Below the pieces are notes generated by a model. That model did not search any database. It saw only the letters and a list, made by a program, of their open reading frames with translations, and was not told the DNA's origin. Positions 12,164-12,318 of a DNA stretch of 13,075 bases are shown here, one piece after another; position 1 is the first letter of the stretch, and each line of letters opens with the position of its first letter. This DNA comes from Thainema sp. (GTDB taxonomy: Bacteria > Cyanobacteriota > Cyanobacteriia > Phormidesmidales > Phormidesmidaceae): NCBI GenBank assembly GCA_052168235.1, contig JBQLZK010000113.1, forward strand, positions 1 to 13,075, in the 5' to 3' direction. The position numbers and the translations under genes are program-made.

Positions 12164-12318
12164 TCAAGTACCACCTTGTCCTGAACCATCACAAGGAAAC
12201 GAGTAGCCGAAATCTTTGCCTCCGCTAAGAGTTGATTGCGTATCGTTCGACAGCTCTTGCCAAAGTGATGGTTTAGTTAACAAGTGTTGGGGGAAGGCTT
12301 TGCAATATTACGTTTCAT
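12164..12318 (-). pseudogene. Double-glycine leader peptide gene 3 (core resembles the PsaB FX-binding loop), 1-nt frameshift in the leader
   Basis: Adding one base to the G5 run at 12289-12293 gives [51 protein letters not shown]. As written, the ATG 12318 frame stops after 13 codons. An in-frame TTG could give a shorter leader. Confidence 0.8.

What the first reader, a model, noticed from the sequence alone, without database searches (positions are those of the whole stretch)
12167..12217. Peptide 3 core copies the photosystem I PsaB FX iron-sulfur loop
[17 protein letters not shown] matches remembered PsaB [17 protein letters not shown](C) at 15 of 17 positions. It is PsaB-type rather than PsaA-type ([10 protein letters not shown]). 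It starts right after GG and stops one residue before the second FX cysteine. Both mismatches are one transition from consensus (TCA from CCA, CAA from CGA), which fits drift after the leader frameshift. This motif is among the most invariant in oxygenic phototrophs.
Basis: partly seen in the sequence, partly recalled or inferred. Interest (0 to 1): 0.88.

Follow-up and report, generated by a model that had tools for sequence, protein, structure and literature searches.

The report
Exported peptide copying photosystem I loop
A small, probably decaying gene in a cyanobacterium encodes an export-tagged peptide whose body copies the iron-sulfur loop of photosystem I, and it belongs to an apparently undescribed family of peptide arrays built from copies of short invariant pieces of the cell's most conserved proteins.

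Summary
Window 12167-12217 (minus strand) encodes [17 protein letters not shown] directly after a Gly-Gly leader. It matches the genome's own PsaB at 15 of 17 residues (E 7e-10; 49 bits against at most 26.9 in 20 shuffles). The stop codon stands where PsaB has its second FX cysteine.

It is not psaB debris. The flanks do not align to psaB, and the DNA is only 39/54 identical to the own psaB.

Peptide 3 is one of nine leader peptides in this genome. Other cores copy phycocyanin beta, a porin, an HExxH protein and ATP synthase subunit c.

Similar arrays lie beside a C39-peptidase ABC exporter, an AraC-like regulator and HlyD in at least seven other cyanobacterial genomes. Three of those genomes (G083, G072, Goleter) hold FX-loop peptides with both cysteines, reading PGRGGTC.

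Of 60 cores, 27 match a conserved protein better than all 20 of their shuffles (about 3 expected). Orthologous peptide pairs give dN/dS 0.19-0.56.

Peptide 3 itself looks degenerate: leader out of frame with its ATG, two invariant residues changed, truncated core, truncated HlyD next door.

Function is not shown. I favour exported mimics that interfere with the copied proteins in competitors. I found no paper describing this.

The parts
12167..12217 (-). Peptide 3 core, [17 protein letters not shown]: a copy of the PsaB FX loop
   Evidence: 15/17 identical to own PsaB. 49.0 bits against at most 26.9 bits in shuffles.
12164..12166 (-). TGA stop at the position of PsaB's second FX cysteine codon (TGC)
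   Evidence: Codon-by-codon comparison.
12218..12283 (-). Peptide 3 leader as read from TTG: [21 protein letters not shown], with the LWQEL...SGG motif of the family
   Evidence: Leader HMM E 3.9e-7 and E 2.3e-6.
12277..12318 (-). Out-of-frame ATG frame [13 protein letters not shown]: the likely original N-terminus of the leader, now frameshifted
   Evidence: It resembles the Lys-rich N-termini of the other leaders. The frameshift reading is inference.
12687..12863 (-). Peptide 1: GG|MFDAFTKVVVQADARGEF, a copy of the first 18 residues of C-phycocyanin beta
   Evidence: 14/18 to own CpcB from Met1, E 5e-8. TIGR01339 model positions 1-17.
12379..12603 (-). Peptide 2: GG|SVIFLFAAATSNTQRLQEEFSAELATLRGRVDA; the C-terminal half copies the motif between the SLH domain and the barrel of iron-uptake porins
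   Evidence: 15/18 to own porin C21, E 5e-9, and three further paralogs. NF033921 E 5.9e-5.
11863..12036 (-). Peptide 4: GG|SSLLAHELTHVAQQSGI, a copy of the HExxH motif of eCIS_core/DUF4157 proteins
   Evidence: 11/13 to own C34 protein. PF13699 E 1.4e-5. The source protein scores PF13699 at 110 bits.
11641..11811 (-). Peptide 5 (no ATG/GTG/TTG start): GG|NNERIRVKLKSYDHLTWAMSLMF. It resembles the S10 N-terminus followed by a PsaA/PsaB helix piece
   Evidence: An intact ortholog lies in G001. The homolog in G050 matches own S10 at 37.1 bits against 30.3 in shuffles. The window copy itself is not above its shuffles.
11370..11612 (-). HlyD-family adaptor cut to 80 codons
   Evidence: The G001 ortholog is 446 aa, TIGR01843 E 1.6e-47.

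Best explanation
Peptide 3 is a member, probably a decaying one, of a family of small genes for double-glycine-leader peptides.

The leader (LWQEL...SGG) is the handle for a C39-peptidase ABC exporter, which would cut after GG and, with an HlyD adaptor, export the core. Cleavage and export are inferred from gene content, not shown.

The cores of this family are short strings of copies of invariant segments of highly conserved cyanobacterial proteins. The sources seen are the PsaA/PsaB FX loop and helices, the loop and C-terminus of ATP synthase subunit c, the N-termini of phycocyanin beta, EF-Tu, S10 and HU, the pilin helix, the porin linker, thioredoxin and an HExxH motif. Purifying selection on the amino-acid sequence keeps these copies, so the resemblance is the point of the peptide.

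Most likely mode of action (inference, about 1 in 3): the released peptide competes with the native segment. It thereby disturbs the assembly or function of the copied complex in other cyanobacteria, as a bacteriocin-like interference peptide.

Peptide 3 carries the PsaB FX-loop piece but shows several defects:
- it has lost the reading frame to its ATG;
- two invariant residues are changed;
- the second cysteine is lost;
- the upstream piece seen in its homologs is missing.

I therefore expect it to be silent or weak.
For: **Match and its limits**
- 15/17 to own PsaB, far above shuffles. Homology stops at the core's edges.

**Leader family**
- An HMM of 8 leaders finds only those 8 in the genome; the next best hit has E 2.8.
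- A ninth peptide with core [10 protein letters not shown], equal to the last 10 residues of own subunit c, lies at the C46 contig end.

**Export genes**
- A 721-aa C39 ABC exporter on C46 has two peptides directly upstream and two AraC-like genes.
- The window holds an HlyD fragment.

**Same architecture elsewhere**
- Exporter and AraC-like gene with peptide arrays occur in G083, G399, G050, G375, G072 and G001, with an HlyD-like gene in four of them; Goleter shows AraC and an array.

**Homologs of peptide 3**
- G083 and P0010: core [33 protein letters not shown].
- G399: ...[18 protein letters not shown].
- G072: [20 protein letters not shown]....

**Selection**
- The G083 core is 18/18 identical to PsaB in protein but 40/54 in DNA against G083's own psaB, and all 14 differences are synonymous.
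- Peptide 3 and the G083 peptide share TCN-Ser, TTT, xCA and GGA against both psaB genes.
- Among 30 psaB genes, identity to peptide 3 is only 35-42 of 54.
- dN/dS between G083 and G399 for five peptides is 0.19-0.56, against 0.15 and 0.14 for the flanking protease and regulator genes.
- P0010 differs from the G083 peptide only in the first 19 leader residues.

**Generality**
- 27 of 60 cores beat all 20 of their shuffles, where about 2.9 are expected.
- By source: subunit c 8, PsaB 5, PsaA 3, pilin 3, S10 1, CpcB 1, porin 1, HExxH 1, thioredoxin 1, other 3.
- Source proteins were named by NCBIfam or Pfam.
Against: - No expression, cleavage, export or activity data exist.
- No homolog of peptide 3 with the same GG|KDFGY junction was found: 0 matches in 185,579 genomes and no short protein homolog.
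- Peptides 1-4 are absent from the same-genus genome G001.
- 33 of 60 cores match nothing above their shuffles.
- The EF-Tu and HU matches are marginal against the own genome: 29.5 bits against 29.1-30.3, and 28.6 against 28.2.
- Synonymous-only divergence from psaB could also arise if a piece was taken from a foreign psaB. The argument for selection therefore rests on the codons shared between peptides, on codons not seen in the 30 psaB genes, and on small-sample dN/dS. That dN/dS was computed on stop-to-stop frames.
- G083 and G399 carry nearly the same cluster although they are filed in different families. This may be horizontal transfer, so the two are not independent.
- How an exported peptide would reach PSI, ribosomes or the nucleoid of another cell is unexplained.
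- Several FX copies have lost one or both cysteines (peptide 3, G399, G083b).
Confidence: 0.55

Rival explanations
1. Neutral gene debris. A fragment of psaB (own or foreign) landed behind a leader-like sequence by chance and is simply decaying. The resemblance has no function.
For: Peptide 3 has a frameshifted leader, two changes at invariant residues and a stop at the second cysteine. The neighbouring HlyD is truncated and peptide 5 lacks a start codon. Peptides 1-4 are not in G001. Because psaB is invariant here, a foreign psaB donor would give synonymous-only differences without any selection on the peptide.
Against: No psaB homology lies outside the core. The junction sits exactly at GG. 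The same piece sits behind the same kind of leader in G083, P0010, G399 and G072. Peptide copies share codons that differ from both psaB genes. dN/dS is 0.19-0.56. 27 of 60 cores in 8 genomes copy conserved proteins.
Confidence: 0.08
2. Signal rather than weapon. The exported cores imitate the peptides that abundant proteins release when cells lyse. They would act as danger or kin signals, or as false alarms for competitors.
For: The sources are proteins that general knowledge takes to be abundant: PSI, subunit c, phycocyanin, EF-Tu, S10, HU, pilin and porin. Several cores start exactly at the native N-terminus: CpcB Met1 in peptide 1 and G083d, HU Met1 in Goleter, EF-Tu residue 2 in Goleter and G375. 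An AraC-like regulator accompanies every array.
Against: No receptor or two-component pair specific to the arrays was identified. Many pieces are transmembrane or internal segments. Nothing was tested.
Confidence: 0.2
3. Metal or iron-sulfur binding peptide. The FX-type cores with two cysteines bind Fe-S clusters or metals outside the cell, or dock to PsaC.
For: The intact copies keep both FX cysteines and the whole [10 protein letters not shown] loop (G083a, P0010, G072, Goleter). That such loops can hold a cluster is recalled knowledge, not tested here.
Against: Peptide 3 and the G399 copy end before the second cysteine. G083b and its G399 ortholog have serine at the first cysteine position. 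The same arrays carry pieces of proteins that have nothing to do with metals.
Confidence: 0.1
4. Chance resemblance of a short peptide to PsaB.
For: Only 17 residues are involved, and Pfam and NCBIfam scores lie below the curated cut-offs.
Against: E 6.9e-10. 49 bits against at most 26.9 in shuffles. Homologs carry the same piece.
Confidence: 0.01

Closest known systems
Double-glycine-leader peptides (class II bacteriocins/microcins) exported by peptidase-containing ABC transporters with an HlyD-type adaptor; cyanobacterial clusters surveyed by Wang, Fewer and Sivonen 2011 (PMC3140520; I read passages found with 'find')
   Same: A leader that ends in GG with a hydrophobic residue at -4 and acidic residues. 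A C39 ABC exporter and HlyD in the clusters. Several precursors per cluster with very diverse cores.
   Different: In the passages I saw, that paper describes cores rich in Gly, Cys, Ser and Thr with little conservation. The words phycocyanin and photosystem do not occur in it. Here the cores are copies of segments of conserved housekeeping and photosynthesis proteins, and the leader has its own LWQEL...SGG signature. NCBIfam's CTB-bacteriocin model touches only peptide 2, below its cut-off.
PsaB, photosystem I core protein (TIGR01336, PF00223)
   Same: 17 residues of the FX loop, 15 of them identical; the match is PsaB-type.
   Different: It is not a psaB gene or a fragment with flanks. There are only 17 codons, the DNA is 39/54 identical, no homology lies beyond the core, and the piece sits behind an export leader.
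Cyanobactin pathways (PatA/PatG proteases)
   Same: The G083 array (Pfam) is followed by an S8 protease with PatG_D and PatG_C domains; G399 holds its 646-aa homolog.
   Different: No heterocyclase or PatE-type precursor was seen. The window's genome shows no such protease beside its peptides. No cyclisation signal was looked for.
Peptide signals cut out of housekeeping proteins (enterococcal pheromones from lipoprotein signal peptides; the EF-Tu N-terminus sensed by plants): recalled, no call
   Same: Short pieces of conserved proteins act as extracellular messages. One of the copied pieces here is the EF-Tu N-terminus.
   Different: Those peptides come from the real proteins. Here separate genes encode copies behind an export leader, strung together from several proteins.

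Membership tests
Double-glycine-leader peptide, substrate of a C39 ABC exporter | Leader ending in Gly-Gly (or GA/GS) with conserved hydrophobic and acidic positions | tested here: met
   [15 protein letters not shown]. Leader HMM E 3.9e-7 and E 2.3e-6. Aligned with 23 other leaders.
Double-glycine-leader peptide, substrate of a C39 ABC exporter | C39-peptidase ABC transporter and HlyD adaptor encoded with the peptides | tested here: inconclusive
   The window holds only an 80-codon HlyD fragment. The genome's exporter lies on another contig (C46) with three further peptides. Adjacency of the two contig ends cannot be shown because the C113 end is a repeat. The homologous arrays in six other genomes (G083, G399, G050, G375, G072, G001) do lie beside the exporter.
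Double-glycine-leader peptide, substrate of a C39 ABC exporter | Intact precursor with a start codon in frame | tested here: not met
   The ATG at 12318 is out of frame and only a TTG at 12283 is in frame. TTG initiation is not excluded.
Double-glycine-leader peptide, substrate of a C39 ABC exporter | Cleavage after GG and export | not testable with these tools
   No RNA holder was listed and no proteomics is available.
Curated bacteriocin leader models (TIGR01847, NF038167 CTB family) | Score over the curated cut-off | tested here: not met
   Peptide 3 gives no hit. Peptide 2 scores 20.2 bits against cut-off 32, and 13.5 against 15.7. The own-genome scan gives 18.8 bits for peptide 2 only.
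PsaB / PsaA_PsaB (TIGR01336, PF00223) | Full-length core protein, or at least homology beyond one loop, over the cut-off | tested here: not met
   20.1 bits against 23.3. 21.9 bits against 921.65. The DNA alignment ends at the core.
Family of motif-copy peptide arrays proposed here | Core piece matching a conserved protein above shuffles, behind an LWQEL...SGG-type leader, with homologs in other arrays | tested here: met
Cyanobactin precursor | PatE-like precursor with recognition sequences, heterocyclase, PatA and PatG | not tested
   Only an S8 protease with PatG_D/PatG_C domains was seen, in G083 (Pfam) with a 646-aa homolog in G399. None was seen beside the window's peptides.

The most novel reading that the evidence does not exclude
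Some cyanobacteria carry arrays of export-tagged peptide genes whose products are 'strings of beads'. Each bead is a copy, kept by selection, of a short invariant segment of a highly conserved and mostly abundant protein. The sources include the photosystem I FX loop and helices, the ATP synthase c-ring, phycocyanin, EF-Tu, S10, HU, pilin, porin and thioredoxin. This would be a new principle for secreted peptides. The beads would mimic a rival's own protein segments, either to poison assembly of its essential complexes or to fake the peptide signature of lysed cells. Peptide 3 is a worn copy of the FX-loop bead.
Probability: 0.45. Interest if true: 0.92.

Novelty: new variant of a known kind. 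Interest (0 to 1): 0.85.

Why it matters
If the copies are functional, this is a natural library of peptides aimed at the most invariant sites of photosynthetic and housekeeping machines. That would mean a new logic for bacteriocins or signals, based on segment mimicry rather than pore formation or enzyme action. It would also supply ready-made probes or inhibitors for PSI assembly, the c-ring, phycobilisome assembly and others. It would further explain a set of 'hypothetical proteins' that public annotation leaves unnamed. The idea is directly testable with synthetic peptides and supernatant peptidomics.

Tried and rejected
- **Class-wide protein search with peptide 3.** 372 of 401 genomes matched. 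Apart from peptide 3 itself, every one of the 150 listed matches lay in a long psaB-type frame of 205-863 aa. A further 310 matches were not listed, so the search says little.
- **Short query.** The 47-aa stop-to-stop frame found no candidate among proteins of 25-83 aa.
- **DNA pattern for G+[11 protein letters not shown].** 0 matches in genome contigs.
- **First regex for GG peptides.** 29 hits, of which only the 5 window peptides and one on C12 were plausible. It missed the C46 peptides.
- **Same kind of regex on 30 loci around C39 domains.** Only 3 candidates; too strict.
- **Genome-wide BLAST of 43,050 small frames against 5,926 long frames.** Swamped by dispersed repeats and pseudogene pieces; abandoned as an unbiased test.
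- **AraC-like protein as a marker.** 188 of 401 genomes hit, so it is too broad. Its flanks nevertheless yielded new arrays.
- **My first idea that [10 protein letters not shown] was a decayed form of the PsaB stretch LILVKGALDAR.** This was wrong: it is the C-terminus of ATP synthase subunit c.
- **Adjacency of the C46 and C113 contig ends.** Not shown, because the C113 end is a repeat found at about 19 contig ends.
- **Sequencing runs.** No RNA holder was listed.
  - DNA contigs of one study are identical over peptide 3. They may come from the source sample, so they are not independent.
  - A part without cover proves nothing.
- **Metagenome scan for the FX loop followed by a stop.** It returned only the Goleter contig again.
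- **Promoter and terminator scan.** No more sites than in shuffles.
- **Complex prediction, structure prediction and the protein atlas.** Not used. A pass for an FX-loop peptide with PSI subunits would mostly reflect likeness to solved PSI structures.
- **Literature.** Five searches and passages of PMC3140520 gave no description of such cores. Supplements were not read.

Full report
**1. Observation**

On the minus strand, window 12164-12283 reads (TTG)[38 protein letters not shown]. The window is a whole contig (C113) of a 7.5-Mb genome that is 99.99% complete.

That genome's own PsaB reads [22 protein letters not shown] at this loop. PsaB lies on C52 and scores 1561.8 bits for TIGR01336. The comparison gives:
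- 15 of 17 residues identical; the differences are P->S and R->Q;
- the peptide's TGA stands at the codon of the second FX cysteine;
- against PsaA only 10 of 14 residues agree.

The match is far beyond chance. tblastn gives E 6.9e-10 and 49.0 bits, against at most 26.5 bits in 12 shuffles and 26.9 bits in 20 shuffles. Pfam and NCBIfam see the same stretch but below their cut-offs.

**2. Not debris of psaB**

- A local DNA alignment of 240 bases around the core with the own psaB covers only the 54 bases of the core.
- Within the core, 39 of 54 bases agree. Ten codons differ synonymously (Ser is TCG against AGC), two differ in amino acid, and one is the stop.
- All 30 psaB genes examined (the own one and 29 others) encode [18 protein letters not shown]. 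None is closer than 42 of 54 bases to peptide 3.

**3. The neighbourhood**

Five small frames with the same kind of leader lie head to tail on the minus strand between 11641 and 12863.

| Peptide | Core | What it copies | Evidence |
|---|---|---|---|
| 1 | MFDAFTKVVVQADARGEF | First 18 residues of C-phycocyanin beta, starting at Met1 | 14/18, E 5e-8 |
| 2 | ends LQEEFSAELATLRGRVDA | Motif between the SLH domain and the barrel of four own iron-uptake porins | Best 15/18, E 5e-9 |
| 3 | [17 protein letters not shown] | PsaB FX loop | See section 1 |
| 4 | SSLLAHELTHVAQQSGI | HExxH motif of eCIS_core/DUF4157 proteins | |
| 5 | NNERIRVKLKSYDHLTWAMSLMF | Resembles S10 N-terminus plus a PsaA/PsaB helix piece | No start codon; not above its shuffles |

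Downstream lies an HlyD-family gene cut to 80 codons. In the same-genus genome G001, an intact peptide 5 (65 aa) is followed by an intact 446-aa HlyD. Homology to the window ends near 11850, so peptides 1-4 are not there.

**4. The rest of the system in this genome**

- An HMM of the last 20 leader residues finds eight peptides and nothing else in the genome; the next best hit has E 2.8.
- Two of them lie directly upstream of a 721-aa C39-peptidase ABC exporter on contig C46. Next to it are two AraC-like genes; one of them was confirmed by Pfam, the other was matched by the Goleter AraC-like protein.
- One of these two ends in LILVKGALDAR. This equals 11 of 11 residues of PsaB lying eight residues upstream of the peptide-3 piece. 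All DNA differences are synonymous (24/31 bases identical), and a hairpin followed by a T-run comes after the stop.
- A ninth peptide sits 100 bases from the C46 contig end. Its core is [10 protein letters not shown], exactly the last ten residues of the own ATP synthase subunit c (NF005608, 164 bits).
- The C113 end is a repeat found at about 19 contig ends. Whether the two halves abut cannot be told.

**5. The family elsewhere**

*Leader searches.* The leader alignment found only G001 among 120 other genomes of the family. Among 400 genomes of the class it also found G083, G338 and G107. The G338 and G107 peptides have ordinary cores with no significant match.

*G083.* Its record title calls it an Elainellales MAG. 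Its locus holds, in order:
- the exporter;
- an AraC-like gene;
- seven peptides;
- an S8 protease with PatG_D and PatG_C domains;
- a beta-lactamase-fold protein;
- HlyD.

Its first peptide has the core [33 protein letters not shown]. That is the subunit-c C-terminus followed by the intact FX loop with both cysteines. Another peptide carries a PsaA-type loop. Another joins the phycocyanin N-terminus, the porin motif and a subunit-c piece.

*Pattern search.* A DNA pattern for the FX loop followed by a stop found only two loci in 185,579 genomes: the G083 contig and one in a Goleter apudmare MAG. The metagenome scan returned the Goleter contig again. The Goleter locus has an AraC-like gene, seven peptides and a beta-lactamase-fold protein. 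One peptide ends in [15 protein letters not shown].

*Further arrays.* Scanning the flanks of AraC-like genes with a 24-leader model revealed further arrays in G399, G050, G375, G072 and G001.

*Homologs of peptide 3:*
- G399: [32 protein letters not shown], which also ends before the second cysteine.
- G072: [28 protein letters not shown].
- A metagenome protein, P0010, whose core is identical to that of G083. All its differences from the G083 peptide lie in the first 19 leader residues.

Public records call these peptides hypothetical proteins.

**6. How general the copying is**

I collected 60 cores from 8 genomes by the leader model. I compared each, with 20 shuffles, to the window's genome, with most of the peptide loci masked. 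The C46-end peptide was not masked, so it appears as an extra hit for subunit-c cores.

27 of 60 had a top hit above all their shuffles, where about 2.9 are expected. Their sources:

| Source | Cores |
|---|---|
| ATP synthase subunit c | 8 |
| PsaB | 5 |
| PsaA | 3 |
| A type IV pilin | 3 |
| S10 | 1 |
| Phycocyanin beta | 1 |
| Porin | 1 |
| HExxH protein | 1 |
| Thioredoxin | 1 |
| Marginal others | 3 |

Caveats:
- The EF-Tu and HU N-terminus copies are recurrent across arrays, but each is only marginal against this genome.
- 33 cores match nothing. Some of these form recurrent families of unknown source, such as AEGCLAWSI... and ...CTEKGC...DMLPPGL.
- Many cores are mosaics of pieces from two or three proteins. 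One G399 core carries subunit c, then the PsaA loop, then HExxH.

**7. Selection**

- The G083 FX piece is 18/18 identical to PsaB in protein but 40/54 in DNA against G083's own psaB. All 14 differences are synonymous, and it uses codons (TCA, AGG, GGA) that are rare or absent at those positions in the 30 psaB genes.
- Peptide 3 shares TCN, TTT, xCA and GGA with it against both psaB genes. This points to common ancestry of the peptide genes rather than two fresh captures.
- Nei-Gojobori estimates between G083 and G399 give dN/dS of 0.19, 0.27, 0.30, 0.56 and 0.20 for five peptide frames. The S8 protease gives 0.15 and the AraC-like gene 0.14.
- The samples are small, the frames are stop-to-stop, and the two clusters are close relatives.

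**8. What peptide 3 is**

It is the FX-loop member of this family in a worn state:
- the ATG at 12318 is out of frame, which leaves only a TTG;
- two residues that are invariant in psaB and in the intact peptides are changed;
- the second cysteine codon is a stop;
- the upstream subunit-c piece of its homologs is missing;
- the array around it has a truncated HlyD and a startless peptide 5.

At the Arg codon the intact peptide has AGG, so CAA-from-CGA is not shown.

**9. Mechanism**

*Shown:* leader family, gene neighbourhoods, copying, and signs of purifying selection.

*Inferred:* cleavage after GG by the C39 domain, and export through the ABC exporter with HlyD.

*Function is open.*
- I rank interference with the copied complexes in other cyanobacteria first. 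Many pieces are helix or interface segments according to general structural knowledge, though this was not tested here.
- A signalling role as mimics of lysis products comes second.
- Metal or cluster binding, for the two-cysteine FX cores only, comes third.

**10. Novelty**

The following gave nothing on cores that copy host proteins:
- five literature searches;
- passages of the 2011 survey of cyanobacterial bacteriocin clusters;
- three look-ups of this scan's earlier notes, by place, by the G083 peptide sequence and by words.

Export machinery and the leader type are known. The content of the cores appears to be new.

Noticed in passing
window 12928-13024: Palindromic repeat of about 95 bases. 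It has many near-identical copies in this genome and in G001, so it looks like a miniature mobile element. It lies just upstream of peptide 1.
   Followed up: partly
window 13036-13075: The last 40 bases of the contig recur at about 19 other contig ends of the assembly. They are probably the edge of a multi-copy insertion element where the assembly broke.
   Followed up: partly
window 11370-11612 and 9196-11271: The HlyD gene is cut to 80 codons where a 691-aa ORF on the other strand begins; that ORF looks like a response-regulator/histidine-kinase hybrid from its sequence, though it was not scanned against Pfam. An intact paralog of the HlyD lies on C41:48221-49552, with 77% DNA identity over the fragment.
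   Followed up: partly
window 11793 and 11814: A contig from a run of another study (X4) carries a 1-base deletion at 11793 and A>G at 11814, upstream of peptide 5. I did not work out whether this restores a start for peptide 5.
   Followed up: no
window 11998-12025: The leader of peptide 4 holds a threefold 9-base repeat that encodes NKQNKQNKQ.
   Followed up: no
G000 C12:101030-101284 (+): A lone peptide of the same leader family with core HHNKFLGEWIRYA. It lies far from any exporter, and the source of its core was not identified.
   Followed up: partly
L086 (G083) and L130 (G399): Two genomes filed in different families carry almost the same array and flanking genes; the S8 protease is 585/646 identical in protein. 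This suggests horizontal transfer of the whole locus or a binning problem.
   Followed up: partly
L127, L129, L094: Recurrent cores of unknown source occur in several arrays: AEGCLAWSI.FGDV..., RKIDL..CTEKGC.IWN.YDMLPPGL and KLIWR..DP.WG..GWCR..LDG. They may copy proteins that this genome lacks, or they may be original peptides.
   Followed up: no
window 6499-8835: A 778-aa ORF that looks like a phytochrome-type sensor histidine kinase, flanked by response-regulator-like genes at 5556-5996 and 8477-9235. I did not study it.
   Followed up: no
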